From sequence record PZ445536.1: DNA of 64,000 nucleotides; one strand, written 5' to 3'. Of the stretch, positions 33 through 60,481 are shown piece after piece; positions within the stretch are counted from its first letter, which is position 1, and each line of letters opens with the position of its first letter. The position numbers and the translations under genes were made by a program. Source of the stretch: a phage. The notes beneath the pieces are model-generated. The model saw nothing but the letters and a program-made list of their open reading frames with translations. It did no database searches and was not told where the DNA came from.

Positions 33-2012
33 ATGACTTTATTATCTCCGGGCATTGAGCTCAAAGAAACTACGGTTCAAAGCACCGTGGTTAATAACTC
101 TACTGGTACAGCAGCTTTGGCCGGTAAATTCCAGTGGGGTCCTGCTTTTCAGATTAAACAGGTTACAAATGAAGTAGATTTAGTTAATACTTTTGGTCAA
201 CCAACAGCTGAAACTGCTGATTATTTTATGTCTGCGATGAATTTCTTGCAGTACGGAAATGACTTACGAGTAGTTCGTGCTGTTGATAGAGATACCGCTA
301 AAAACTCATCTCCGATTGCTGGTAATATTGAATACACAATTTCTACCCCAGGTAGTAACTATGCAGTTGGAGATAAAATCACGGTCAAATATGTTTCAGA
401 TGATATTGAAACTGAAGGTAAAATTACTGAAGTAGACGCAGATGGAAAAATTAAGAAAATTAATATTCCTACTGCAAAAATTATCGCTAAAGCGAAAGAA
501 GTCGGTGAATACCCAACATTAGGTTCTAACTGGACTGCAGAAATTTCTTCGTCTTCCTCTGGTTTAGCCGCAGTAATAACTCTTGGAAAAATTATTACTG
601 ATTCTGGTATTTTATTAGCTGAAATTGAAAATGCTGAAGCTGCTATGACAGCGGTTGACTTTCAAGCAAATCTCGAAAAATACGGAATTCCAGGAGTAGT
701 AGCTCTTTATCCAGGCGAATTAGGCGATAAAATTGAAATTGAAATTGTATCTAAAGCTGACTATGCAAAAGGAGCTTCTGCATTACTCCCAATTTATCCA
801 GGTGGTGGTACTCGTGCATCTACTGCTAAAGCAGTGTTTGGATATGGACCACAAACTGATTCACAGTACGCTATTATAGTTCGTCGTAATGATGCTATTG
901 TTCAGAGTGTTGTTCTTTCAACTAAGCGTGGTGAAAAAGATATTTACGATAGTAACATCTATATCGATGACTTTTTCGCAAAAGGTGGTTCAGAATATAT
1001 TTTTGCAACTGCACAAAACTGGCCAGAAGGCTTCTCTGGAATTTTAACTCTTTCTGGTGGATTATCATCAAATGCTGAAGTTACAGCAGGAGATTTGATG
1101 GAAGCTTGGGACTTCTTTGCTGACCGTGAATCCGTTGATGTTCAACTGTTTATTGCGGGTTCTTGTGCCGGTGAATCTTTAGAAACAGCATCTACTGTTC
1201 AAAAACACGTCGTTTCAATTGGGGATGCTCGCCAAGATTGCTTAGTATTGTGCTCACCACCGCGTGAAACTGTAGTTGGAATTCCTGTAACTCGTGCAGT
1301 AGATAATTTAGTTAACTGGAGAACTGCAGCAGGTTCATACACTGATAATAACTTTAATATCAGTTCAACCTATGCAGCAATCGATGGCAACTACAAATAT
1401 CAGTATGACAAATATAATGATGTGAATCGTTGGGTTCCATTAGCAGCTGATATTGCTGGTTTATGCGCAAGAACTGATAACGTATCTCAGACTTGGATGT
1501 CTCCAGCTGGTTATAATCGTGGCCAGATTCTTAACGTTATTAAACTTGCTATTGAAACTCGCCAGGCTCAGCGCGACCGTTTATACCAAGAAGCTATCAA
1601 CCCGGTAACTGGTACAGGTGGTGATGGTTACGTATTGTATGGTGATAAAACAGCTACTTCTGTTCCTTCTCCGTTTGATCGTATTAACGTTCGTCGTCTG
1701 TTTAATATGTTGAAAACGAATATCGGACGTAGTTCAAAATATCGTTTGTTCGAATTAAACAACGCGTTTACTCGTTCATCATTCCGCACAGAAACTGCCC
1801 AGTACTTGCAGGGAATTAAAGCTCTCGGTGGAATTTATGAATATCGTGTAGTTTGCGATACAACAAATAACACTCCGTCAGTAATTGATAGAAATGAGTT
1901 TGTTGCAACATTCTACATCCAACCGGCTCGTAGTATAAATTATATCCAACTTAATTTCGTCGCAACTGCTACTGGTGCAGATTTTGATGAGTTAACTGGT
2001 CTTGCAGGTTAA
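33..2012 (+). CDS. 18: tail sheath protein (gp18-like), 659 aa
   Basis: ATG at 33 with AGAGGA RBS upstream; length and N-terminus MTLLSPGIELKETTVQ match the T4-type contractile sheath protein. Confidence 0.93.
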   Translation: MTLLSPGIELKETTVQSTVVNNSTGTAALAGKFQWGPAFQIKQVTNEVDLVNTFGQPTAETADYFMSAMNFLQYGNDLRVVRAVDRDTAKNSSPIAGNIEYTISTPGSNYAVGDKITVKYVSDDIETEGKITEVDADGKIKKINIPTAKIIAKAKEVGEYPTLGSNWTAEISSSSSGLAAVITLGKIITDSGILLAEIENAEAAMTAVDFQANLEKYGIPGVVALYPGELGDKIEIEIVSKADYAKGASALLPIYPGGGTRASTAKAVFGYGPQTDSQYAIIVRRNDAIVQSVVLSTKRGEKDIYDSNIYIDDFFAKGGSEYIFATAQNWPEGFSGILTLSGGLSSNAEVTAGDLMEAWDFFADRESVDVQLFIAGSCAGESLETASTVQKHVVSIGDARQDCLVLCSPPRETVVGIPVTRAVDNLVNWRTAAGSYTDNNFNISSTYAAIDGNYKYQYDKYNDVNRWVPLAADIAGLCARTDNVSQTWMSPAGYNRGQILNVIKLAIETRQAQRDRLYQEAINPVTGTGGDGYVLYGDKTATSVPSPFDRINVRRLFNMLKTNIGRSSKYRLFELNNAFTRSSFRTETAQYLQGIKALGGIYEYRVVCDTTNNTPSVIDRNEFVATFYIQPARSINYIQLNFVATATGADFDELTGLAG

Positions 2013-2020
2013 TTGATTAT

Positions 2021-2036
2021 GGGGCTTCGGCCCCTA
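2021..2036 (+). terminator. GC hairpin GGGGC-UUCG-GCCCC immediately after gene 18 stop
   Basis: perfect 5-bp GC stem with UUCG tetraloop directly after TAA of gene 18; overlaps first ATG of the next ORF. Confidence 0.6.
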
Positions 2037-2051
2037 TTCTCGAGGAAACAA

Positions 2052-2657
2052 GTGATTATTTCTAAGTTTGTTACAATAAAACCAAGAAATCATTCAAAAA
2101 TGTGGTCGACAATTCTGGGATATAAAGTATCATATCATGATACACTATCTGTTCCAATAGAATTAATGCCAAAGAATAGTAATAAAATAGTTGACGCTAA
2201 ATGTGATTTGTGTGGTATTAAATTTAGTAGAAGCATTCAGCTTTTAAATAGAACACCCACGCATGCATGTAGAAAATGTAGCATTAAACAAGTTGCTATT
2301 AAAAATTCGGAAGTTCAATCTGGAATAAGTAGACCATGGCAAAGAGGTGATAAACATCCTCGATGGACTGGTAAAAGAAAAGAGTTTGCATTATATGCTA
2401 GTAGAGTTCATTCTATAACTAAGTCAGCTAAAATAAGAAAAATCTGGTCAAAATGGCCAAATGCTGATAAAATAGGAGTGTGTGGCGTAGAAGGTGCTTA
2501 CCAACTCGATCATAAAGTATCTATCAAATATGGATTTGATAATTTAATTCCGCCGGAAATTATAGCAAGCGTAAAAAATTTAGAAATAATCACTTGGGAA
2601 TCTAACCGAGAAAAGTCAAAAAGAAATAGCGTAGATCTTTGGGATTTACTAGAATGA
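2052..2657 (+). CDS. HNH-family homing-endonuclease-like protein (free-standing, mob-like)
   Basis: ORF track 2013..2657; two CxxC pairs (CDLCG, CRKCS) followed by an HNH-like motif (LDHKVSIKYGFDN...NLEIITWESNREKSKRN); start uncertain: GTG at 2052 has a GAGGA RBS, alternative ATG at 2019 or 2100. Confidence 0.6.
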   Translation: MIISKFVTIKPRNHSKMWSTILGYKVSYHDTLSVPIELMPKNSNKIVDAKCDLCGIKFSRSIQLLNRTPTHACRKCSIKQVAIKNSEVQSGISRPWQRGDKHPRWTGKRKEFALYASRVHSITKSAKIRKIWSKWPNADKIGVCGVEGAYQLDHKVSIKYGFDNLIPPEIIASVKNLEIITWESNREKSKRNSVDLWDLLE

Positions 2658-2664
2658 TTCTAAA

Positions 2665-2682
2665 GGCCTGTTTCGGCAGGCC
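2665..2682 (+). terminator. hairpin GGCCTG-loop-CAGGCC after the HNH ORF
   Basis: 6-bp inverted repeat directly after the TGA at 2655..2657; no clear U-tract. Confidence 0.4.
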
Positions 2683-2683
2683 A

Positions 2684-2691
2684 TATAAATA
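2684..2691 (+). promoter_or_regulatory. late promoter motif TATAAATA (distal copy upstream of gene 19)
   Basis: exact TATAAATA match on + strand. Confidence 0.5.
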
Positions 2692-2742
2692 CACTATATC
2701 CTTAATTCTTTAATTCTATATGCCCTAGGTTAAACATAGGGA

Positions 2743-2750
2743 TATAAATA
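2743..2750 (+). promoter_or_regulatory. late promoter TATAAATA for gene 19
   Basis: exact TATAAATA 15 nt upstream of the gene 19 ATG. Confidence 0.7.
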
Positions 2751-2764
2751 CTACAGAGGCTAAT

Positions 2765-3256
2765 ATGTTTGTAGATGATGTAACACGAGCGTTTGAATCT
2801 GGTGATTTTGCTCGACCTAACTTATTCCAAGTAGAAATTTCTTATCTTGGACAAAATTTTACGTTCCAATGTAAAGCCACTGCTTTACCAGCTGGTATTG
2901 TAGAAAAAATTCCAGTCGGATTTATGAACCGTAAAATTAACGTGGCAGGCGATCGTACATTCGATGACTGGACTGTTACAGTAATGAACGATGAGGCACA
3001 TGATGCTCGCCAGAAGTTCGTTGATTGGCAAAGCATTGCTGCTGGTCAAGGAAACGAAATTACTGGTGGAAAACCTGCAGAGTATAAAAAGAGCGCTATC
3101 GTTCGTCAATATGCTCGTGACGCTAAAACAGTAACAAAAGAAATTGAAATTAAAGGTCTGTGGCCTACTAACGTGGGTGAACTTCAATTAGATTGGGATT
3201 CAAACAATGAAATCCAAACCTTTGAAGTAACTCTTGCTCTCGATTATTGGGAATAA
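2765..3256 (+). CDS. 19: tail tube protein (gp19-like), 163 aa
   Basis: ATG with AGAGG RBS; 163-aa product, position after the sheath gene. Confidence 0.92.
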   Translation: MFVDDVTRAFESGDFARPNLFQVEISYLGQNFTFQCKATALPAGIVEKIPVGFMNRKINVAGDRTFDDWTVTVMNDEAHDARQKFVDWQSIAAGQGNEITGGKPAEYKKSAIVRQYARDAKTVTKEIEIKGLWPTNVGELQLDWDSNNEIQTFEVTLALDYWE

Positions 3257-3288: not shown

Positions 3289-4913
<1,625 letters not shown>

Positions 4914-23908: not shown

Positions 23909-25885
23909 CTACATTTTGAACTTTTTAGACATTCCGTTGATGTTAACCAAAGAAGCCAAGATTTGAGAAACTTCGTTTTCCTCTTCTTTTGATTCTTCTA
24001 CAAGGAATTGATTAAATCCAGCCATTGGACGAACTTCACCAGTTTCCATTAAATGGTCGCCATCATATACTGATTCTTCTAATTGTTCAGAAGGAGGAAC
24101 GATTGTACCTTCGATTAGATACTTGTTATAAGCAGTTTCTTTCATAAAGTACGTACTTACTTTATTAATCTTCAGTAAAATTCCACGCGGTAGAATAACT
24201 TCAGCTTCTGATGGAAATCCTGATAAATGACCTGGAACGATAACTTTGATTCGCTCAGCTCCTTTAATTACCATACCCACGCTAGTTTCAGCATCTTCAT
24301 TGGCATATGTAGAATGACTACCCATATGCATCAAATCTTCTGCATCAACAGAACCTTCTCCTTCGCCAGAAAATACTGCGCCGGAATCATCTAGAGCCAT
24401 ATAGTTTTTACCATGCTCACCGAAGATATTTGGTTTAAGCGATGTAGATACGAAGTTCTTGAAATAGAACATTTTGTTTTCAATGTTATGACGCAAAGTT
24501 TTAAAGGTAACTTCTTGTCCACGATAAAGCGTAGTTCCTGGAGGAAGAACTGAACCTTTAGCGAATGCAGAATCTAACGTCTCGATGTGCTTAATAGCTC
24601 GTTCCATATATTCTTCACGGGTAGAATCTGGTTTACCCAAAAGGAACGAGTTCATTTCAACATATGAATCTGCACAATAATCTTCAATTACATCAGATTC
24701 AGCTTGGGTTAATCCTTTTGGAGTTACTTCGGTGCTTGTGTATTCATATGCCTGAGCAGCAGATTCATTAATCAATTTATAAATGCCATTCATTACAAAT
24801 TGAATAATAGCTGTCTTTTCATCTGATGTAGCTTTAGAACCTTTAACTAAATCATTGATAATTTTCTTAATAACATCAAAGCTATTAGAAATATTAATGT
24901 CAGCAAGATCGCTTAAAATTTTATCAGTTTTATAATCAAAGAATTCTTTATTCTTTAAATATTCTTGAGAACCTTGATATGTTATATCGCTCTGCAGCTT
25001 GATAGATGGATCGCGTAAACGTGCATGGGCTAATGCAATATGATTTCGGAAGTTTTCTAGTTCATAATCATTAGATTTAAAACGAGAAGCACTTCTCATA
25101 CCACCGATAGCTCCTTTGCTGAAGTTTGAACCAATCTGGATAACGCCAGAGTTCATTGGTCCTTCTGCTTTATATACCGGAACTTTAGATTCAAACTCTT
25201 GATATTTCTTGGCAGCGAAGCTATCACCCTGAAGTGAAGCATCAACAGTAGAATATTGAGCTTGTGCTGCTAATCGACGACTAATTTTAGTTTTCTGAAT
25301 AACAGCTTGATCAGTGCGCTTATCATTTTCTAAAGCAATAGAAGCAGCAACAGCGACAGCTTTAGGAACAGCATTACCTGTTTTAACGTCTACATAAACA
25401 TCACCAACCTTTGATTCAACTTTTGTGAATAACTCAGTTGAAATAGGAGGTACACCTGGAATGTCTTCTAAATTGGCATTTTTACGGTAAACCATAATAT
25501 ATGCATACTTTTTATCATAGTCCCAGATTTCCTTTAAAAGAACATATCGACCTGCTCCTTTAGTACGTACTAAACGGTCAGCAATAACTTGTATTTGACG
25601 AGCAGCGCCATTTGTTTTACTTTTTAGTACGCGGAATAGGCATGCGTCAATTTTATACTGTTTCATTGTTTGAAGAGCAGTATCAAAAACAGCATTAATG
25701 ACGCCAATTGGATTTCCACCCAAGTTTCTAAGCTTAACTAGTGATAATTTCTCGTTGACACCTATCATTACGATATGCATCATTTTATCGCCCGGCTTAA
25801 CGTTTTTATTCGTATCACCGCCAGAGGTGTATGTACAAAAATCTAAATCCAGGAAGCACGCTTTCTTCACCGGCTTGAATAGCAA
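23909..25885 (-). CDS. Alt-like ADP-ribosyltransferase paralog, main ORF (N-terminal 50 codons lie in another frame); possibly frameshifted or a pseudogene
   Basis: 658-aa ORF begins at a TTG with no RBS; shares the conserved N-terminal domain and ART motifs (YRGQ, FVSTSL, EAEVILPRG) with the adjacent alt gene. Confidence 0.7.
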   Translation of the reverse strand: MLFKPVKKACFLDLDFCTYTSGGDTNKNVKPGDKMMHIVMIGVNEKLSLVKLRNLGGNPIGVINAVFDTALQTMKQYKIDACLFRVLKSKTNGAARQIQVIADRLVRTKGAGRYVLLKEIWDYDKKYAYIMVYRKNANLEDIPGVPPISTELFTKVESKVGDVYVDVKTGNAVPKAVAVAASIALENDKRTDQAVIQKTKISRRLAAQAQYSTVDASLQGDSFAAKKYQEFESKVPVYKAEGPMNSGVIQIGSNFSKGAIGGMRSASRFKSNDYELENFRNHIALAHARLRDPSIKLQSDITYQGSQEYLKNKEFFDYKTDKILSDLADINISNSFDVIKKIINDLVKGSKATSDEKTAIIQFVMNGIYKLINESAAQAYEYTSTEVTPKGLTQAESDVIEDYCADSYVEMNSFLLGKPDSTREEYMERAIKHIETLDSAFAKGSVLPPGTTLYRGQEVTFKTLRHNIENKMFYFKNFVSTSLKPNIFGEHGKNYMALDDSGAVFSGEGEGSVDAEDLMHMGSHSTYANEDAETSVGMVIKGAERIKVIVPGHLSGFPSEAEVILPRGILLKINKVSTYFMKETAYNKYLIEGTIVPPSEQLEESVYDGDHLMETGEVRPMAGFNQFLVEESKEEENEVSQILASLVNINGMSKKFKM

Positions 25886-25967
25886 AAATTTGTGGTATTT
25901 TATGCTTAGGATTTAAGTTAACAACCGGCGCCGAAGCGCCGTCAAATAATTCTGTAATAAGTTCCAT
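25815..25967 (-). CDS. N-terminal fragment ORF of the Alt-like paralog (50 codons, alt.-1-like)
   Basis: ATG with AGGA RBS; hand translation MELITELFDGASAPVVNLNPKHKIPQIFAIQAGEESVLPGFRFLYIHLWR*, collinear with the Alt N-terminus up to PGFRF, then out of frame. Confidence 0.6.
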   Translation of the reverse strand: MELITELFDGASAPVVNLNPKHKIPQIFAIQAGEESVLPGFRFLYIHLWR

Positions 25968-25970
25968 GAT

Positions 25971-28061
25971 TTATCCTTGAACGAACTTGTAAGGCATGTT
26001 TGCAATATCTATGCAAGACACAATAATTCCAAGAGATGATTCTACTTTCTGTTTAACATTTGATGAAACAAATGATGCAAAGTCAACTCTATCTTCTATA
26101 TCACCTGTCATTGCAACTACTTCGCCGGTTTCCATTAAACGGTCTCCGTCATAGATTACCGATTCGGTGAGTTCTTCGGTGGTCATAACTTCAGCTTGAA
26201 TGAGTTTTGTATTATTAGACGTGGTTCCGTCATTATTAGAAGCATCAGTTATTTTATTAACTTTGACCATCAATCCACGCGGTAGAATAACTTCAGCTTC
26301 TGTTGCTATTCCTAGACTTCCTGGATATACAACATTAACTTTATGAGCTCCATCAATTGCCCATCCTATTTGAACTTTAACGTATTCAGGATTTTCTTTA
26401 TACGCTCTTATTTCGTTTGGATTAATAGTTATTCCTTCTTCATTTTTATCAACTGTCAATTCATTACGAGCTTCTGGTTCTAAAAGACCAATACCAGCAT
26501 GTGTAATTCCAAAACGCCCAAAAATGATAGGAGTTAAAGAAGTAGATACAAAATTTCTGAAATAGAACACTTTATTTTTAACTAGTGCTTCGTATATAGG
26601 AGCAGTCATACTTTGTGCACGATAAACTGTAATGCCTTCCGGTATACGGTCACCATTTTCAAAAGCTGAATCTAAGTTATTTATAGCAGATTCAATTTCT
26701 TTTTCACTCATTACATCATATCGTTCTGGATTGTAGCGTCCTAAAAGAAGATTATTGATGTCAGTATATCCTGAACCACAATACTCTCTAATGCCGCGCT
26801 TTTGTGATGGAGTATATTTAGAACCATCACGGGCAATAGTAATATCAATCATTGGACCTGCACCAATTCCAGAAAAGCTATAAATCATTCGTTTGAGGAA
26901 TTTAGTTTTTGCTGCGTTCCAGGAATTTTTAGTTATTTCTTCCCAGACTTCATCTGGCTGTCCTTTACGGGTTTTATTATGTTTATCAAGCCAAGTATCT
27001 TTATATTCTTCAAAGAATTTATTAATAGCTGCTGCATACTTCTCTAAACATTTTATTGAAGTAGTTGGTTCATTTTTGATCGCATTAAGAATTACATCTT
27101 TAATTTTTTCAGAAACTTCATTAACCTCACTTTTTGAAAAGAATTTATAATCATAGTGAAGTTCATCTGCAGTTCCTTCGGCAATAATTTTTGCTGCCTT
27201 AGTTTTAGAAGCCAATGAATTAATTCCAAGTTTCATTTCTTCTGCTTCGGGAATTAAAGGAGCGGTAGCAGGTTTATTGAAATTAGCTGCGGTAGATTCA
27301 TACTTCTGGAATAATTCACTTTCAAATCTAGAAGATTCCAATGATTGACTTTGCGCAATTGCTCTACGGGAAATTTTAACTTTAACGATTACAGCTTGGT
27401 CAGAACGTTTATCATTTTCTTGTGCAATAGATGCTGCAATTGCCTCATTTTTAGTTACTTGAGCTCCAGTATCTTTATTGATATAAACATCGCCGACTTT
27501 CGATTCAACTTTAGTAAAGAGCTCGGTACTAATTTCCGGAACTCCTGGAATGTCTTCTAGTGATACATTTTTGCGATGTATAAGAATATATGCATACTTT
27601 TTATCATAATCCCAGAGTTCCTTAAGAAGGACGTATCTGCCACCTGAACGACTACGGATAAGTCTATCAGCAATAACTTGAATTTGTCGAGCTTGACCAG
27701 CGGTTTTAGACTTAAGAATACGAAGCATACAAGCATCAATTTTATACTGACGCATTGTTTGCATTGCAACAGTAAAAACTGAATTGATATAATTAATTGG
27801 GCTTGGACCAAGACCTTTTAATTTAGCAATTGAACCTTTAGCAGTTAATGTAAAAGGAACAATATGCATCATTTTATCGCCCATCTTTAAATCGCGATTA
27901 GTATCACCTCCAGATGTATAGGTGCATAAACGAAAGCCTGGTTGTTCAATTGCATCATCAACACGAACTGAAAAAATTTGTGGTATTTTCTTCTTTGGAT
28001 TTAAGTTTGTAATCGGAAGAGTAGTATCTTCGTCAAATAATTCTGTAATAAGTTCCATCAT
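25971..28061 (-). CDS. alt: Alt, capsid-packaged RNA polymerase ADP-ribosyltransferase
   Basis: N-terminus (M)MELITELFDEDTTLPITNL; ART triad R (VYRAQ), S-T-S (FVSTSL), E-x-E (EAEVILPRG); true start may be the second Met. Confidence 0.88.
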   Translation of the reverse strand: MMELITELFDEDTTLPITNLNPKKKIPQIFSVRVDDAIEQPGFRLCTYTSGGDTNRDLKMGDKMMHIVPFTLTAKGSIAKLKGLGPSPINYINSVFTVAMQTMRQYKIDACMLRILKSKTAGQARQIQVIADRLIRSRSGGRYVLLKELWDYDKKYAYILIHRKNVSLEDIPGVPEISTELFTKVESKVGDVYINKDTGAQVTKNEAIAASIAQENDKRSDQAVIVKVKISRRAIAQSQSLESSRFESELFQKYESTAANFNKPATAPLIPEAEEMKLGINSLASKTKAAKIIAEGTADELHYDYKFFSKSEVNEVSEKIKDVILNAIKNEPTTSIKCLEKYAAAINKFFEEYKDTWLDKHNKTRKGQPDEVWEEITKNSWNAAKTKFLKRMIYSFSGIGAGPMIDITIARDGSKYTPSQKRGIREYCGSGYTDINNLLLGRYNPERYDVMSEKEIESAINNLDSAFENGDRIPEGITVYRAQSMTAPIYEALVKNKVFYFRNFVSTSLTPIIFGRFGITHAGIGLLEPEARNELTVDKNEEGITINPNEIRAYKENPEYVKVQIGWAIDGAHKVNVVYPGSLGIATEAEVILPRGLMVKVNKITDASNNDGTTSNNTKLIQAEVMTTEELTESVIYDGDRLMETGEVVAMTGDIEDRVDFASFVSSNVKQKVESSLGIIVSCIDIANMPYKFVQG

Positions 28062-36501: not shown

Positions 36502-37704
<1,203 letters not shown>

Positions 37705-37708
<4 letters not shown>

Positions 37709-40754: not shown

Positions 40755-41933
40755 TTAAAAATATTTTTTAAAACTCATCATAACTTTATCATCAACATCA
40801 TTATCAATCTGTGCAACAAGGTAAGATGACAGTTCTACTTCTTGTGGCGCGGATTGAACATTATCAGAATTAAGATATTCACGAATCCAAGGATATGGAT
40901 GTTTAACCGGAGCATCGATAATTGGGCATGGAAGACCACACTGTTTCATACGAGATACAGTTAAGTAATCAATAAAGCTCCACATGCTATTTGTATTTAA
41001 TCCAGGAACATCGCCATCTTTAAATAAATGAACTGCCCAATCTTTTTCTTGGCGGTTAACTTCCATGAAAATATCAACTGCTTCTTGTTCACACTCTTGA
41101 GCAATTTTAACCCATTCATCGCCATCAGTACCAGATTGAAGTTGACGAATAATATATTGTGTACCTTTAAGATGAAGCTGCTCATCACGTGCAATGAACT
41201 TCATAATCTTTGCATTGCCTTCCATAATTTCCATGTTCTTATGGAAGTTAAAGGTACATGCGAAAGATACATAAAAACGAATAGCTTCCAATGCGTTGAT
41301 TACATGCAAACAGAGGTAAAGAGATTTCATTAGCTCACGCTTCCAATATGTCTCATGCTCAATAGCATCTTCAATAACATCTTCGTCTGCATTAATTTCT
41401 TTTTGGTATTCGATATCAGCTTTAGCGTTTTCCCAATAACGAGTTTTAGTCAGAACATCATCATAATAACGTCCAATGGATTCAGCACGTTTCATAATAG
41501 CTTCATCTAATACAATCTCATCAAATACCTTCGATGGATCAGTATAAAGATTTCGCATGATATGTGTATATGAACGAGAGTGAATAGTTTCACTAAAAGT
41601 CCACGTAGCAACCCATGTATCAAGGCTTGGGTCTGAAATTAATGACATAAGTACAGCAGACGGCGCACGACCCTGAATGCTATCCAAAAGTGATTGATAC
41701 TTCAGATTATTAGTAAAAATATTTTGCTGATACTGAGGAAGCTTATTAAACTGTGCAGCATCCATCATTAAGTTTACTTCTTCAGGACGCCAGAAAAATG
41801 ATAATTGCTTTTCGGTTAAATCTTCAAAAACTTTATGGCGTTGAATATCATAACGCGCAATACCAAGACCTGAACCAAAAAACATAGGTTCTTTTAAAAC
41901 ATCAACTGGATTTGTATTAAAAACTGTGCTCAT
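40755..41933 (-). CDS. nrdB: ribonucleotide reductase small subunit NrdB, uninterrupted
   Basis: 392-codon continuous ORF with di-iron/tyrosyl radical family features; no intron-like interruption. Confidence 0.9.
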   Translation of the reverse strand: MSTVFNTNPVDVLKEPMFFGSGLGIARYDIQRHKVFEDLTEKQLSFFWRPEEVNLMMDAAQFNKLPQYQQNIFTNNLKYQSLLDSIQGRAPSAVLMSLISDPSLDTWVATWTFSETIHSRSYTHIMRNLYTDPSKVFDEIVLDEAIMKRAESIGRYYDDVLTKTRYWENAKADIEYQKEINADEDVIEDAIEHETYWKRELMKSLYLCLHVINALEAIRFYVSFACTFNFHKNMEIMEGNAKIMKFIARDEQLHLKGTQYIIRQLQSGTDGDEWVKIAQECEQEAVDIFMEVNRQEKDWAVHLFKDGDVPGLNTNSMWSFIDYLTVSRMKQCGLPCPIIDAPVKHPYPWIREYLNSDNVQSAPQEVELSSYLVAQIDNDVDDKVMMSFKKYF

Positions 41934-44806: not shown

Positions 44807-45667
44807 TTATACCGCCATTTTTCCTTTAATTGGCAGATGAGATACATAGTTGTTAAGAACAAAATTATGAGGCTTTGCAAATTGACTCAACCAAAATACC
44901 TGCGATTCTGTGTCCCATTCATCAAATTCATCTGGAAATTTTAATTGTAATTCGCATAAATCCATAGGTTCACGACGCAAAATTTCTTTACATTGTTCTA
45001 CGTGATTCATATAGATATGAGTATTACCACCAGAAAATATCAAATCTCCCGGAATAAGATTACACATCTTAGCTACAATATGAACTAACGTAGCATATGA
45101 TGCAATATTAAATGGAAGACCGAGGAAAACATCTACCGAACGTTGATACCACTGCAAATCTAAATAGCCATTACGCACATTAAACTGATAGAACATATGA
45201 CAAGGAGGTAATGCCATATATTTAAGTTCAGCTGGATTCCACGCAGAAACAATTTGACGCCTATCATTTGGCAGTTTTTTAATACGATCAACAACTTCTA
45301 TAATTTGGTCTACACCGCCAAAATCACGCCACTGTTTTCCATAAATTGGACCAAGTTCACCGCTATGGTATCCTAAATCTTTTGCCTGATTTTCGTAATT
45401 TTCATCCCAAACTGTTTTGCCTTGGATTAACGAATCGTGTTGAATTAATCGTAAATCATTAACATTTGTGCTTCCTGATAAAAACCATATTAGCTCAGCA
45501 ATGCATGCATTCCAGGCGAGCTTCTTAGTTGTTACTGCAGGAAAACCTTTGGTTAAATCCCAACGCAATTTAGTACCGAACAGAGCAATTGTTCCTGTGC
45601 CCGTTCGGTCATCGGTTTCATAGCCATTTTCAAAAATGTCTTTAATTAAATCTTGGTATTGTTTCAT
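44807..45667 (-). CDS. td: thymidylate synthase, 286 aa, uninterrupted
   Basis: continuous 286-codon ORF; catalytic region LPPCHMFYQF. Confidence 0.92.
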   Translation of the reverse strand: MKQYQDLIKDIFENGYETDDRTGTGTIALFGTKLRWDLTKGFPAVTTKKLAWNACIAELIWFLSGSTNVNDLRLIQHDSLIQGKTVWDENYENQAKDLGYHSGELGPIYGKQWRDFGGVDQIIEVVDRIKKLPNDRRQIVSAWNPAELKYMALPPCHMFYQFNVRNGYLDLQWYQRSVDVFLGLPFNIASYATLVHIVAKMCNLIPGDLIFSGGNTHIYMNHVEQCKEILRREPMDLCELQLKFPDEFDEWDTESQVFWLSQFAKPHNFVLNNYVSHLPIKGKMAV

Positions 45668-45712
45668 TTAGTACCTTATATAAATTATAATACATTTTAT
45701 GAAGCTAAATAA

Positions 45713-46060
45713 TCAATACGGTTTAGCATCAAATTTTCTCTCAATTTCAGGTGTGAAATATAATTCTTTACCGCGTTTGGAAAAACGACCAATAATATGA
45801 TAATTATTCTCATCAAACGTGATATTACCAATATCCATAGCTTTCAACCAAATATCAATATTTCTATCCAGCTTTATGTCAAAATTCCAATACGGAGAAC
45901 TATTACCGAAAATACTGCAAGCGGATTCAGTGAAACAACTACTATAAATCTTGTCTTTAGGAACTACTAATTGATAAACGCCTTTAATAAACTGAGGACC
46001 CTGCCACTTTGGCTGTTTCTCATCTTTTTCTAATAGAATAGGGTAATAATTAAAATTCAT
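45713..46060 (-). CDS. hypothetical protein (115 aa) inserted between frd and td
   Basis: ORF with ATG start occupying a 412-bp interval between frd and td; no motif recognised. Confidence 0.55.
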   Translation of the reverse strand: MNFNYYPILLEKDEKQPKWQGPQFIKGVYQLVVPKDKIYSSCFTESACSIFGNSSPYWNFDIKLDRNIDIWLKAMDIGNITFDENNYHIIGRFSKRGKELYFTPEIERKFDAKPY

Positions 46061-46079
46061 ATTTCCGCCACGCGTTATT

Positions 46080-57286: not shown

Positions 57287-60200
57287 ATGGCTACTTTAAA
57301 ACAAATACAATTTAAAAGAAGCAAAACCGCAGGTGCACGTCCTGCTGCTTCAGTATTAGCCGAAGGTGAATTGGCTATAAACTTAAAAGATAGAACAATT
57401 TTTACTAAAGATGATTCAGGAAATATCATTGATTTAAGCATTTCCGCTGGCGGTAATATCAGTGGAAATGTAACTATTGATGGAACTTTACGCGTCAATG
57501 GACCAATAAACAATTTTGGAAATTTTTCCACAAGTGGCCAGATTACCGCTGGTAGTAGTATTTCAGCTCAAGTTTTTAGAGCATTGCAAGGTTCGTTTTA
57601 TACAAGAGCATCAAATGATGTCTCAAATGCCCATTTATGGTTTGAAAATGCCGATGGCACTGAACGAGGTGTTATATATGCTCGTCCTCAAACTACAACT
57701 GACGGTGAAATACGCCTTAGGGTTAGACAAGGAACAGGAAGCACCATTAATAGCGAATTCTATTTCCGTTCTATAAACGGCGGTGAATTTCAAGCCAATC
57801 GTATTTTAGCATCAGATTCGTTAGTAACAAAACGCATTGCAGCTGATACAGTTATTCACGGTGGCAAAGCCTTTGGTGTATATGATACGGATTCATTAGT
57901 TAACTACGTATACCCAGGCACCGGTGAAACTAACGGAGTAAACTATCTTCGTAAAGTTCGCGCTAAATCAGGCGGTACCATATGGCATGAGCTTTGTACT
58001 GCTCAATCAGGCCAAGCTGATGAAATGTCTTGGTGGACCGGTTCTACTCCTATTTCAAAACAATTTGGTATTCGTCATGACGGTCGGATGATTGTCCGCA
58101 ATAGTCTTGCATTAGGCACTATGACTACTGATTTTCCATCGAGCGATTATGGTAATGGTGGCGCATTAGGATTCGGTGCTTATTTGGCTCTAGGTGATAA
58201 CGGAACTGGTTTACGCTATCAAAAAACCGGTGTTTATGATTTAGTTGGTTCCGGATTGTCTGTTGCATCTATTACTCCAGATAGTTTCCGTAGTACTCGT
58301 AAAGCATTATTTGGACGTTCAGAAGACCAAGGCACCACATGGATTATGCCTGGAACGAACGCTGCATTTTTATCAGTTCAAACACAGGCTGATGAAAACA
58401 CTGCTGGAGACGGCCAGACGCATATTGGCTATAACTCAGGCGGAAAAATGAACCACTATTTCCGTGGTAAAGGCAAAACTAATATTAATACTCAGGAAGG
58501 TATGGAAGTTAATCCGGGTATTTTGAAATTGGTAACTGGCTCTAATAATGTAATGTTTTATGCTGATGGCGGTATTACATCTGTTAAGCAGCTTTCAATA
58601 TATAATGGCATATATTTAGCAGCTAATAATTCTACTGCTGGGCTAACATTCGCTCCAACTACTACAGTTGATGGTACTAAGCAAATTTTGTGGGAAGGCG
58701 GTACTCGTGCTGGGCAGAATAAAAGCTATGTAACTGTTAAAGCGTGGGGTAATTCATTTAACGCATCTGGCGATCGTTCCCGTGAAACAGTTTTTGAGGT
58801 AGGTGATGGGCAAGGTTACCATTTTTATTCTCAACGTGTAGCTCCTGCGCCTGGTTCGACTGTCGGGCCTATTCAACTCCGAGTTGATGGTGGTTTATTA
58901 ACTTCAGGTAGTATTGTTGCTTCTGGTTCTATTACAACCGAATCTTCTTTGAGTGTTAATAATGGCATGTCAGTAAACGGACAAGCTAAATTCGGTGGAA
59001 CTGCTGATGCATTAAGAATTTGGAATGCCGAATACGGTGCTATTTTCCGTCGCTCAGAAACAGCATTACATATTATCCCGACTCCCAAAGATGCCGGTGA
59101 AAGTGGTGGAATAAGTAATCTCCGCCCACTTAGTATTAGTCTTAATAATGGTATGGTACAAATGCGCCATTCTGTTACGTTAGGCGATGATGGCGCTGGC
59201 GGTAATATGATTACTGTGGACAACGATACCAAACTTGTTGTTGTTACTAGTAATAGTCGCATTTCTCCTAATTACCGTATGCAGGTAGGACAAGCAGCTT
59301 ATATTGATGCTGAATGTACTGACACAGTTCGCCCGGCTGGTGCAGGGTCTTTTGCTTCACAAAATAATGAAAACGTTCGTGCTCCATTCTATATGAATAT
59401 TAATCGCACAGATACAAGTACTTACGTTCCTATTTTGAAACAGCGATATGTCCAAGGAAACAGTTGTTATTCTCTGGGAACTCTAATTAACGGCGGTAAC
59501 TTCAGAGTTCATTATCATGAAGGCGGCGATGGCGGTTCGACTGGCGCTATTATAAAGGATTTAGGTTGGGAATTTACCAAAAATGGTGATTTTATATCTC
59601 CTAAGCGTGTTTCTGCTGGGGGTTCAGTTTATTTAGGTACAGACGGCAATATTACAGGTGGTTCTGGCAATTTTGCTAATTTAAACAGTACAATTGAATC
59701 ACTTAAAACCGATATTGTATCGAGTTACCCAATCGGTGCTCCTATTCCATGGCCAACGGATACTCCTCCTGACGGTTACGCTATTATGGAAGGCCAGACT
59801 TTTGATAAGTCTGCATACCCAAAATTGGCTATGGCTTACCCATCTGGCGTAATTCCAGATATGCGCGGGCAAACTATTAAAGGTAAACCAAGTGGTCGAG
59901 CTGTATTAAGCGCAGAAGCCGATGGTGTTAAGGCTCATAGCCATAGTGCATCGGCTTCAAGTACTGACTTGGGTACTAAAACTACGTCGAGTTTTGATTA
60001 TGGTACTAAGACGACAAGTAGCTTTGACTATGGCACTAAGACTAGCAATACCACAGGTAACCACTCTCATACTGTAAGCGGTACTACGAGTTCTGCTGGT
60101 GCACACCAACATGCGCGCTCAGGTCCTCAGTTACAAGCCGGCATACCCAATAACATATTCTATGACGGATATAATAGTGTAGGTGCAAACGCCAACGCTA

Positions 60201-60481
60201 AAATCACCGGATCTGTGAGCGGTGCTACTGCAGGGTCGAATATAGCCAAAACTTCTTCAGACGGTGCTCATACCCATACTTGGTCTGGTACTACAAGCAC
60301 TACAGGTAACCATGCTCACACAGTAGGTATTGGTGCTCATACCCATACTGTAGGTATCGGTGCTCATACCCACACGGTAGCAATTGGCTCGCATGGTCAT
60401 ACTATCACTGTAAATAGTACAGGTAATACAGAAAACACGGTTAAAAACATCGCTTTTAACTATATCGTTCGTTTAGCATAA
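57287..60481 (+). CDS. 37: long tail fibre distal subunit gp37 (receptor-binding), 1064 aa
   Basis: C-terminus ends [15 protein letters not shown]; His-box repeats ([31 protein letters not shown]); ORF longer than the roughly 1026 aa recalled for T4 gp37. Confidence 0.9.

What the first reader, a model, noticed from the sequence alone, without database searches (positions are those of the whole stretch)
2013..2691. HNH endonuclease-like ORF between tail sheath and tail tube genes, with its start buried in the gene 18 hairpin; td and nrdB are intron-free
A 200 to 214-codon ORF with two CxxC pairs and an HNH-like motif sits between genes 18 and 19. As far as I recall, the T4 reference has no gene there. 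Its first in-frame ATG (2019) lies inside the GGGGC-UUCG-GCCCC hairpin that follows gene 18, and the best RBS-supported start is a GTG at 2052, so translation is probably structure-limited as in known free-standing homing endonucleases. The ORF is followed by its own hairpin and an extra TATAAATA (2684..2691) in addition to the gene 19 promoter at 2743..2750, suggesting the insert brought or duplicated regulatory signals. By contrast td (44807..45667) and nrdB (40755..41933) are continuous ORFs with no group I intron, and no endonuclease ORF lies between nrdA and nrdB or between genes 23 and 24. This phage therefore carries a different set of selfish endonuclease insertions from T4.
Basis: partly seen in the sequence, partly recalled or inferred. 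Interest (0 to 1): 0.6.

Follow-up and report, generated by a model that had tools for sequence, protein, structure and literature searches.

The report
Likely homing endonuclease gene, ORF19.1
Between the tail sheath and tail tube genes this T4-type phage carries ORF19.1, an uncharacterised gene first recorded in phage T6 in 1994, which most likely encodes a selfish DNA-cutting enzyme that copies itself into related phages; this kind of element is common in these phages.

Summary

No Pfam HNH model matches it. The HNH assignment rests on other evidence:
- a confident AlphaFold model has a C-terminal beta-beta-alpha fold;
- D153-H154, N176 and N185 are invariant across the family;
- remote relatives fuse the same module to NUMOD3 or DUF7487 domains.

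Every phage homologue examined lies just downstream of gene 18. Occupancy is sporadic: about 118 occupied and 382 empty junctions in T4-like coliphage records. Its similarity pattern disagrees with gp18's, and two subfamilies sit at two different points of the same spacer. Near-identical phages that differ at this locus carry a sharp cluster of mostly synonymous changes in the last ~100 nt of gene 18.

Best reading: a free-standing HNH homing endonuclease that targets the 3' end of gene 18.

The td, nrdB, mobE and segD statements are correct.

The parts
1905..2012 (+). Last 108 nt of gene 18 (tail sheath; the whole gene is 33..2012). This is the variant tract linked to the insert. I predict it is a co-conversion or immunity tract that contains the nuclease target (codons P-A-R-S-I-N-Y-I onward).
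   Evidence: There are 16 mismatches to T4 in these 108 nt, against 2.8% in the rest of the gene (binomial P = 7e-7). Eleven changed codons are synonymous and one is non-synonymous. The same sharp-edged tract appears in three other near-identical phage pairs.
2013..2656 (+). Segment present here and absent from T4. It is 644 bp and replaces the T4 sequence TACGGTGC.
   Evidence: Base-by-base comparison with T4 and five other empty-site phages, and blastn of the window against T4.
2021..2034 (+). GGGGC-UUCG-GCCCC hairpin carried by the insert, directly after the gene 18 stop codon.
   Evidence: -10.8 kcal/mol and 80% of the ensemble. It is absent from the T4 spacer. A stable hairpin precedes the ORF in all 11 loci examined.
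2042..2046 (+). Shine-Dalgarno sequence GAGGA, 5 nt before the GTG start.
   Evidence: Read from the sequence. It is not paired in the centroid structure.
2052..2657 (+). ORF19.1: 201 aa, GTG start, TGA stop.
   Evidence: Most aligned homologues start M-I-I at this codon. All 12 orthologous ORFs are intact. It matches T6 ORF19.1 / T6ORF160 and PHROG 5104 at E = 1e-81.
2052..2320 (+). N-terminal beta-rich domain with a CxxC...CxxC zinc finger (C51, C54, C73, C76). I presume it binds DNA and sets specificity.
   Evidence: The cysteines are invariant or nearly so. There are weak DUF4379 treble-clef matches in 15 of 40 members. This half of the gene is swapped in the RB9-type allele.
2469..2621 (+). 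C-terminal HNH (beta-beta-alpha-metal) nuclease module. D153-H154 lie at 2508-2513, N176 at 2577-2579 and N185 at 2604-2606.
2665..2682 (+). Resident UUCG hairpin of the 18-19 spacer. It is not part of the insert.
   Evidence: It is identical in T4 and in all the empty sites compared. -12.8 kcal/mol.
2684..2691 (+). Resident late-promoter motif TATAAATA. It is not part of the insert.
   Evidence: It is present at the same place in T4.
2743..2750 (+). Second resident late-promoter motif, just upstream of gene 19 (2765..3256).

Best explanation
ORF19.1 is a free-standing homing endonuclease gene.

The protein has two parts. The N-terminal part is a zinc-finger domain that presumably binds DNA. 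The C-terminal part is a divergent HNH (His-Me finger) nuclease whose catalytic residues are D153-H154, N176 and N185.

Expression (inferred). In this phage the ORF has no late promoter of its own. It would be transcribed late by read-through from gene 18, past the hairpin that the insert carries, and translated from a weak GTG start.

Mechanism (inferred). In a mixed infection the enzyme nicks or cuts the 18-19 region of a relative that lacks the gene. The most likely target is the conserved S-I-N-Y-I codons about 80 nt before the gene 18 stop codon. Recombinational repair from the ORF19.1-bearing genome then copies the gene and about 100 nt of neighbouring gene 18 into the recipient. The carrier's own gene 18 would be protected by synonymous codon changes.

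Shown: gene structure, predicted fold, conserved residues, distribution, and footprints of lateral movement.
Inferred: nuclease activity, the target site, the immunity mechanism and the expression route.

The confidence of 0.7 is for the homing-endonuclease reading as a whole. The specific target site and the immunity mechanism are less certain, at about 0.4.
For: Nuclease
- The AlphaFold2 model is confident (mean pLDDT 89.4) and has a C-terminal beta-beta-alpha unit.
- Foldseek against viral models reaches proteins annotated as HNH or homing endonucleases at E = 1e-5 to 1e-4.
- D-H...N...N are invariant in the family. They are the only invariant columns in 50 remote relatives.
- Among those 50 relatives, the Pfam scan found NUMOD3 in 2 (best E = 2.7e-8), DUF7487 in 3, and weak PF01844 or HNH_4 matches in 3.
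- DUF7487 is also the non-nuclease module of the 'Hef-like' homing endonucleases of phage LIMEstone1.

Mobility
- The boundaries are precise: 644 bp replace 8 nt, and the resident hairpin and promoters are untouched.
- Occupancy is sporadic: about 118 occupied junctions against 382 empty ones among T4-like coliphage records. T4 and T2 are empty and T6 is occupied.
- Protein identities disagree between gp18 and gp19.1. Window/RB9 are 99% against 56%. UGJNEcP3/EcoM005 are 97% against 40%. VR7's gp19.1 is closest to the window's, at 60%.
- In one genus (Dhakavirus), one subfamily sits upstream of the resident spacer and another sits downstream of it.
- The RB9-type allele keeps the leader and the HNH module at about 90% nucleotide identity but has an unrelated N-terminal 130 aa.
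- All 14 sheath-containing loci examined have the gene right after the sheath gene: 11 phage records, the VR26-like contig L023, and metagenomic relatives P0091 and P0084. A further relative, P0149, lies directly upstream of a tube gene on a short contig that does not reach the sheath gene.

Footprint
- In four near-identical pairs that differ in ORF19.1 status or allele, the last ~100 nt of gene 18 carry a sharp cluster of changes.
- Synonymous to non-synonymous changed codons are 11:1, 21:3, 14:3 and 24:1.
- In the last 600 nt compared, the bins upstream of the tract mostly carry 0-3 mismatches per 60 nt. P = 7e-7 and 2e-24 for the two pairs tested over the whole gene.
Against: - No curated HNH model matches the protein.
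- hhalign finds no relation to T4 MobE or to two other nrdA/nrdB HNH endonucleases.
- No cleavage or homing experiment was found in the literature searched.
- All 12 orthologues are intact, and several are packed 1-8 nt from gene 19 or overlap it. That fits a gene kept by selection at least as well as a selfish element that cycles through decay.
- The 'immune' codon set ATA-AAT-TAT also occurs in 3 empty sites.
- The last 60 nt of gene 18 differ by 8 between the two empty-site contigs L022 and L024. The tract could therefore be plain linkage or a recombination hot spot.
Confidence: 0.7

Rival explanations
1. It is an old resident accessory gene of the sheath-tube operon. It is inherited vertically and has been lost many times (T4 and T2 are deletion derivatives). 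It is not a mobile element.
For: Every sheath-containing locus examined has it at the same place, from T-even phages to Sinorhizobium phage phiM12 and metagenomic myoviruses. All copies are intact. Several are tightly packed against gene 19.
Against: - gp19.1 and gp18 identity patterns disagree strongly.
- Two subfamilies occupy two different points of the same spacer within one genus.
- The T4 empty site carries 8 nt (TACGGTGC) that cannot be produced by a simple deletion of the occupied site.
- The RB9-type allele is a mosaic.
Confidence: 0.1
2. It is a nuclease with a job for the phage rather than a selfish one. Possibilities are an HNH partner of the terminase in DNA packaging (as in HK97 gp74 or GVE2 HNH), degradation of host or competitor DNA, or a counter-defence role.
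For: One of the two top structural matches is the phage GVE2 HNH (5h0o). From memory, not checked here, that enzyme is described as terminase-associated. The gene lies one gene downstream of terminase gene 17. All copies are intact and the catalytic residues are conserved.
Against: - It is absent from about three quarters of T4-like coliphage junctions, including T4 and T2, which package DNA normally (established knowledge of T4 headful packaging by gp17).
- It has no match in PADLOC or NCBIfam.
- This reading does not explain the flank footprint or the allele shuffling.
Confidence: 0.1
3. The protein no longer cuts DNA. It is a DNA- or RNA-binding zinc-finger protein, for example a regulator of tail gene expression, built on a dead HNH scaffold.
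For: There is no Pfam HNH match. The metal ligand is Asn rather than the classical second His. The gene sits between two genes whose products are needed in fixed ratios.
Against: The D-H...N...N residues are invariant across relatives down to about 25% identity, while everything else varies. That argues for retained catalysis. From memory, H-N-N variants are active in I-HmuI-type enzymes.
Confidence: 0.07

Closest known systems
T4 Mob endonucleases (MobA-E) and I-HmuI: free-standing or intron-encoded HNH homing endonucleases of phages
   Same: Both have an HNH-type active site. Both are small ORFs in an intergenic spacer between conserved phage genes, are sporadic among close relatives, and are expressed late and weakly. 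The known enzymes nick a site in a neighbouring conserved gene (review PMC2988022).
   Different: The domain order is reversed: here the zinc finger is N-terminal and the HNH module is C-terminal. There is no NUMOD domain in this protein. Neither Pfam HNH models nor hhalign against MobE detect it. The locus (18/19) is not among the T4 sites listed in that review.
'Hef-like' homing endonuclease F-LimVIII of Dickeya phage LIMEstone1
   Same: It occupies the same sheath-tube intergenic position (PMC3296691). It shares the DUF7487 module with some remote ORF19.1 relatives.
   Different: It is on the opposite strand and is 596 aa long. Its weak (below-cutoff) nuclease-domain matches are to Vsr/DUF559-type domains, not HNH. 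hhalign finds no relation to ORF19.1.
Gme HNH (4h9d) and phage GVE2 HNH (5h0o) nicking endonucleases
   Different: They are about 95-aa single-domain proteins with only 10-17% identity to ORF19.1. They lack the zinc-finger N-terminal half. Neither is described in the search output as a homing endonuclease.
T6 ORF19.1 / VR7 gp19.1 / PHROG 5104
   Same: This is the same gene: 98-99% identical to the T6 protein and assigned to PHROG 5104 at E = 1e-81.
   Different: Those records give no function ('hypothetical protein', 'unknown function'). A few pipelines call it HNH endonuclease, homing endonuclease, type II restriction endonuclease or head morphogenesis protein, without evidence.

Membership tests
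HNH / His-Me finger nuclease superfamily | Beta-beta-alpha-metal fold | tested here: met
HNH / His-Me finger nuclease superfamily | Catalytic His at the end of strand 1, plus a conserved Asn and an Asn/His metal ligand in the helix | tested here: met
   D153-H154, N176 and N185 are invariant in 31 to 40 family members. They are the only invariant columns in 50 remote relatives.
HNH / His-Me finger nuclease superfamily | Match to a curated HNH profile (PF01844, PF13395, PF14279) | tested here: not met
   The window protein has no match at E <= 10. One of 40 members matches HNH_4 at E = 0.078. Three of 50 remote relatives match at E = 0.002-0.003, below the curated cut-offs.
HNH / His-Me finger nuclease superfamily | Metal-dependent DNA nicking or cleavage | not testable with these tools
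   This needs purified protein.
Free-standing homing endonuclease genes (functional class) | Own ORF in a spacer between conserved genes, with presence/absence polymorphism among near-identical genomes and clean boundaries | tested here: met
   644 bp replace 8 nt, with identical flanks. About 118 junctions are occupied and 382 are empty. The same polymorphism is seen for S16 against the near-identical contig L020 and for the VR26-like contig L023 against L022 and L024.
Free-standing homing endonuclease genes (functional class) | Evidence of lateral movement independent of the host genome | tested here: met
   The gp18 and gp19.1 identity matrices disagree. There are two insertion points in one spacer. 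The RB9-type allele is a mosaic.
Free-standing homing endonuclease genes (functional class) | Co-conversion or target-site divergence next to the gene | tested here: inconclusive
   A sharp, mostly synonymous divergence tract is found in the last ~100 nt of gene 18 in four of four pairs. However, the same codon set occurs in 3 empty sites, so linkage alone could explain it.
Free-standing homing endonuclease genes (functional class) | Site-specific cutting of the allele that lacks the gene, and super-Mendelian inheritance in mixed infection | not testable with these tools
   This needs cleavage assays and phage crosses. No published test was found.
T4 Mob / I-HmuI-type HNH homing endonucleases | N-terminal HNH domain recognised by PF01844, followed by NUMOD-type DNA-binding modules | tested here: not met
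   In ORF19.1 the HNH module is C-terminal and there is no NUMOD domain. hhalign probability against MobE and against two MobE-site endonucleases that do show this architecture is below 1%.
Hef-like homing endonucleases | DUF7487 module plus a Vsr/DUF559-type nuclease domain (as found here in F-LimVII and F-LimVIII) | tested here: not met
   The window protein has neither domain. hhalign finds no relation to F-LimVIII. The original Hef sequence and paper (PMC1275590) were not available.
Terminase-associated HNH packaging proteins | Present throughout the phage group and needed for packaging | tested here: not met
   It is absent from T4, T2 and most relatives.

The most novel reading that the evidence does not exclude
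The sheath-tube junction may be a long-lived docking site, used across much of the T4-like phage world by at least three nuclease lineages: two ORF19.1 subfamilies and a Hef-like enzyme. ORF19.1 would then represent a large HNH clade with no curated profile (6,625 clusters at 50% identity with E <= 0.001). That clade would be kept intact by selection because cutting the sheath gene of co-infecting relatives excludes rival genomes. Immunity would be encoded purely in synonymous codons of S-I-N-Y-I in gp18.
Probability: 0.2. Interest if true: 0.6.

Novelty: new member of a known kind. Interest (0 to 1): 0.4.

Why it matters
If the protein is active, it adds an uncharacterised HNH lineage and a new target, the essential tail sheath gene, to the T-even homing endonuclease set. 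It would also give a function to a gene that has been labelled 'hypothetical' in hundreds of phage genomes since the 1990s.

It offers a concrete prediction that can be tested. The target would be the S-I-N-Y-I codons of gene 18, and immunity would come from the synonymous codons ATA-AAT-TAT.

It also matters for practical work. The 3' end of gene 18 should not be used as a neutral phylogenetic marker. Crosses or engineered recombinants between T6-like and T4-like therapeutic phages may show biased inheritance around genes 18 and 19.

Tried and rejected
- Pfam, NCBIfam and PADLOC scans of the protein and of family members gave no usable family.
- A profile search of PDB sequences returned only weak zinc-finger matches, such as mitoribosomal mS66.
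- Foldseek against the PDB found nothing significant. The AFDB50 library was not available.
- hhalign of the family profile against T4 MobE, the G50 and slur13 nrdA/nrdB endonucleases and LIMEstone1 F-LimVIII found no relation. Membership in the Mob or Hef-like families is therefore rejected.
- Literature searches for 'gp19.1' and 'ORF19.1' returned SPP1 and Candida papers. The Sandegren 2005 Hef paper is not held. Other searches found no study of this gene.
- The scan found no intrinsic terminator around the ORF.
- The idea that a hairpin hides the ribosome-binding site is rejected.
- Whole-gene ungapped mismatch statistics are unreliable for the L023/L022 and UGJNEcP3/EcoM005 pairs, because these pairs are divergent or offset by indels further upstream. 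Only the last 600 nt were used for those pairs.
- The annotation 'head morphogenesis protein' in some records has no support.

Full report
**What is there**

Window 33..2012 is gene 18 (tail sheath) and 2765..3256 is gene 19 (tail tube). Between them lies an ORF at 2013..2657.

T4 has only a 116-nt spacer at this position. Base-by-base comparison with T4 and five other empty-site phages shows the following:
- Window 2013..2656 (644 bp) replaces the T4 octamer TACGGTGC.
- From ATTCTAAAGG onward the sequence is identical to T4. That stretch includes the hairpin at 2665-2682 and both TATAAATA motifs (2684-2691 and 2743-2750).
- The downstream signals are therefore resident.
- The insert did bring the GGGGC-UUCG-GCCCC hairpin at 2021-2034. 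As a result, gene 18 is still followed directly by a stable stem-loop.

**Start codon and expression**

Most aligned homologues begin M-I-I at the codon that is GTG 2052 here. Of the 12 loci examined, 7 start with GTG and 5 with ATG. The T6 GenBank entry also says 'likely begin by GTG'.

GAGGA lies 5 nt upstream of the GTG. The initiation region is unstructured, and the hairpin does not cover it. No TATAAATA lies upstream of the ORF within the window, and no terminator was called. Expression would therefore be late, by read-through from gene 18, and limited by the GTG start. This is an inference. In VR7, Acj61, WSPA and EcoM005 the homologue has its own TATAAATA.

**Identity of the gene**

The ORF is not new. 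It is 98-99% identical to T6 ORF19.1 / T6ORF160. It belongs to PHROG 5104, 'unknown function'.

The window itself is an unnamed T4-like coliphage. Its best match over 24.5 kb is 98.2% identical, and its gp38 is T4-sized at 183 aa.

**Is it an HNH nuclease?**

Curated profiles do not recognise it. The case rests on other evidence:
- The AlphaFold2 model is confident (mean pLDDT 89.4). It shows an N-terminal beta domain carrying the two CxxC pairs, a helical linker, and a C-terminal beta-beta-alpha unit.
- Foldseek against viral models reaches annotated HNH and homing endonucleases.
- D153-H154, N176 and N185 are invariant.
- A profile search of 1.84 billion representative proteins finds 6,625 clusters at E <= 0.001. 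Many carry only the C-terminal module behind other N-terminal domains.
- In 50 such relatives, D, H, N and N are the only invariant columns.
- The Pfam scan of those 50 found NUMOD3 in 2, DUF7487 in 3 and weak HNH matches in 3.

DUF7487 is also the non-nuclease module of the 'Hef-like' homing endonucleases of phage LIMEstone1. Their nuclease-domain matches, which fall below Pfam's cut-offs, are to Vsr/DUF559-type domains. This shuffling of modules is typical of homing endonucleases.

The protein is not related to the T4 Mob proteins in sequence or in domain order.

**Is it mobile?**

1. Position. All 14 sheath-containing loci examined have the gene directly downstream of the sheath gene. These are 11 phage records (T6, VR7, RB9, S16, phiM12, Ci1, UGJNEcP3, Acj61, EcoM005, WSPA, Roth78), the VR26-like contig L023, and metagenomic relatives P0091 and P0084. 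A further relative, P0149, lies directly upstream of a tube gene on a short contig. One remote relative, P0133, lies elsewhere.
2. Sporadic occupancy. Among T4-like coliphage records there are about 118 occupied junctions and 382 empty ones. Presence/absence polymorphism is also seen for S16 against L020 and for L023 against L022 and L024.
3. Incongruent similarity. Window/RB9 are 99% identical in gp18 but 56% in gp19.1. UGJNEcP3/EcoM005 are 97% against 40%. VR7's gp19.1 is closest to the window's.
4. Two insertion points. In Dhakavirus, the S16-like allele (UGJNEcP3) sits upstream of the resident spacer, while the 'MITN' allele (EcoM005) sits downstream of it, abutting gene 19. The VR26-like locus shows the same downstream arrangement.
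5. Mosaic allele. The RB9-type allele shares the leader and the HNH module with the window (about 90% nucleotide identity) but has an unrelated N-terminal 130 aa.

These points rule out simple vertical descent.

**Footprint in gene 18**

Between the window and T4, the bin 61-120 nt before the gene 18 stop codon holds 12 mismatches. The gene-wide mean is about 2 per 60-nt bin.

The same sharp-edged tract begins at codons P-A-R-S-I-N-Y-I in S16/L020, L023/L022, L023/L024 and UGJNEcP3/EcoM005:
- Synonymous to non-synonymous changed codons are 11:1, 21:3, 14:3 and 24:1.
- In the last 600 nt compared, the bins upstream of the tract mostly carry 0-3 mismatches per 60 nt.
- The enrichment in the last 108 nt gives P = 7e-7 (window/T4) and 2e-24 (S16/L020).

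The codons for I-N-Y are ATA-AAT-TAT in eight occupied loci from several genera. The T4-type ATT-AAC-TAC was seen in four empty sites and, among occupied sites, only in EcoM005.

This is what co-conversion or target-site immunity would leave. Three empty sites also carry ATA-AAT-TAT, however, so linkage alone is not excluded.

Alignment with T4 confirms that the window lacks segD, segE, the nrdB intron with I-TevIII, nrdB.1 plus mobE, the td intron with I-TevI, and segG.

**Verdict**

This is a real but already catalogued ORF. It is most likely a free-standing HNH homing endonuclease of a lineage that curated profiles do not recognise, targeting the 3' end of gene 18. No experiment on it was found. 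The kind of element is ordinary for T-even phages. The persistence at one locus and the predicted target make it a good small experimental project.

Noticed in passing
window 1934-1941: The variant gene 18 tract creates TATAAATT, a 7-of-8 match to the late-promoter motif TATAAATA, 110 nt upstream of the ORF19.1 GTG. The T4-type tract has no such sequence at this position. It might give ORF19.1 its own late transcription in T6-type phages. The other occupied lineages have GATAAATT here.
   Followed up: no
window 45671-46074 (ORF 45713..46060, - strand): About 400 bp of extra DNA with a 115-aa ORF lies between td and frd, which overlap in T4. The ORF has no Pfam match and belongs to PHROG 1928, unknown function.
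   Followed up: partly
window 37407-37701 (ORF 37406..37708, - strand): About 295 bp of extra DNA with a 100-aa ORF lies next to pseT and is absent from T4. The ORF belongs to PHROG 2364, unknown function.
   Followed up: partly
window 23909-28061 (- strand): There are two full-length alt-like ORFs in tandem (658 and 696 aa). T4 has one alt gene plus the alt.-1 and alt.-2 remnants of an old duplication. This region aligns only poorly with T4 (69-80% identity).
   Followed up: no
window 58846-60337: The distal part of gene 37 (long tail fibre tip) is strongly diverged from T4 (74-79% identity, or unalignable). gp38 is T4-sized at 183 aa. This may mean a different receptor specificity.
   Followed up: no
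L005 (RB9) 2463-3118, compared with window 2013-2657: About 48 T4-like coliphage records carry a second allele at the same site. It has the same leader and HNH module but an unrelated N-terminal half, which is closer to the S16 and Klebsiella phage versions. This is a natural swap of the presumed DNA-binding domain.
   Followed up: partly
L040 (Dickeya phage LIMEstone1) 8129-9919: A 596-aa 'Hef-like' homing endonuclease (F-LimVIII; DUF7487 plus weak, below-cutoff Vsr/DUF559-type nuclease matches) also sits between the sheath and tube genes, on the opposite strand. The same junction is therefore used by an unrelated nuclease class.
   Followed up: partly
L011 (vB_EcoM_005) 3747-4328: A further small ORF between genes 19 and 20 is annotated 'HNH endonuclease'. 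Its weak Pfam matches are to a SegE-type GIY-YIG domain and NUMOD3, so the annotation is probably wrong. This would be a second endonuclease gene one gene further along.
   Followed up: partly
L031 2105-4324: In a metagenomic T4-like contig that carries a 385-aa ORF19.1 relative, the neighbouring portal gene contains an intein (Intein_splicing domain inside Portal_T4).
   Followed up: no
L006 (Salmonella phage S16) 2501-3121: The S16 record annotates only the last 106 codons (gp100.1). The full 206-codon ORF with a GTG start is intact. RB9 and some other records do not annotate the gene at all.
   Followed up: yes
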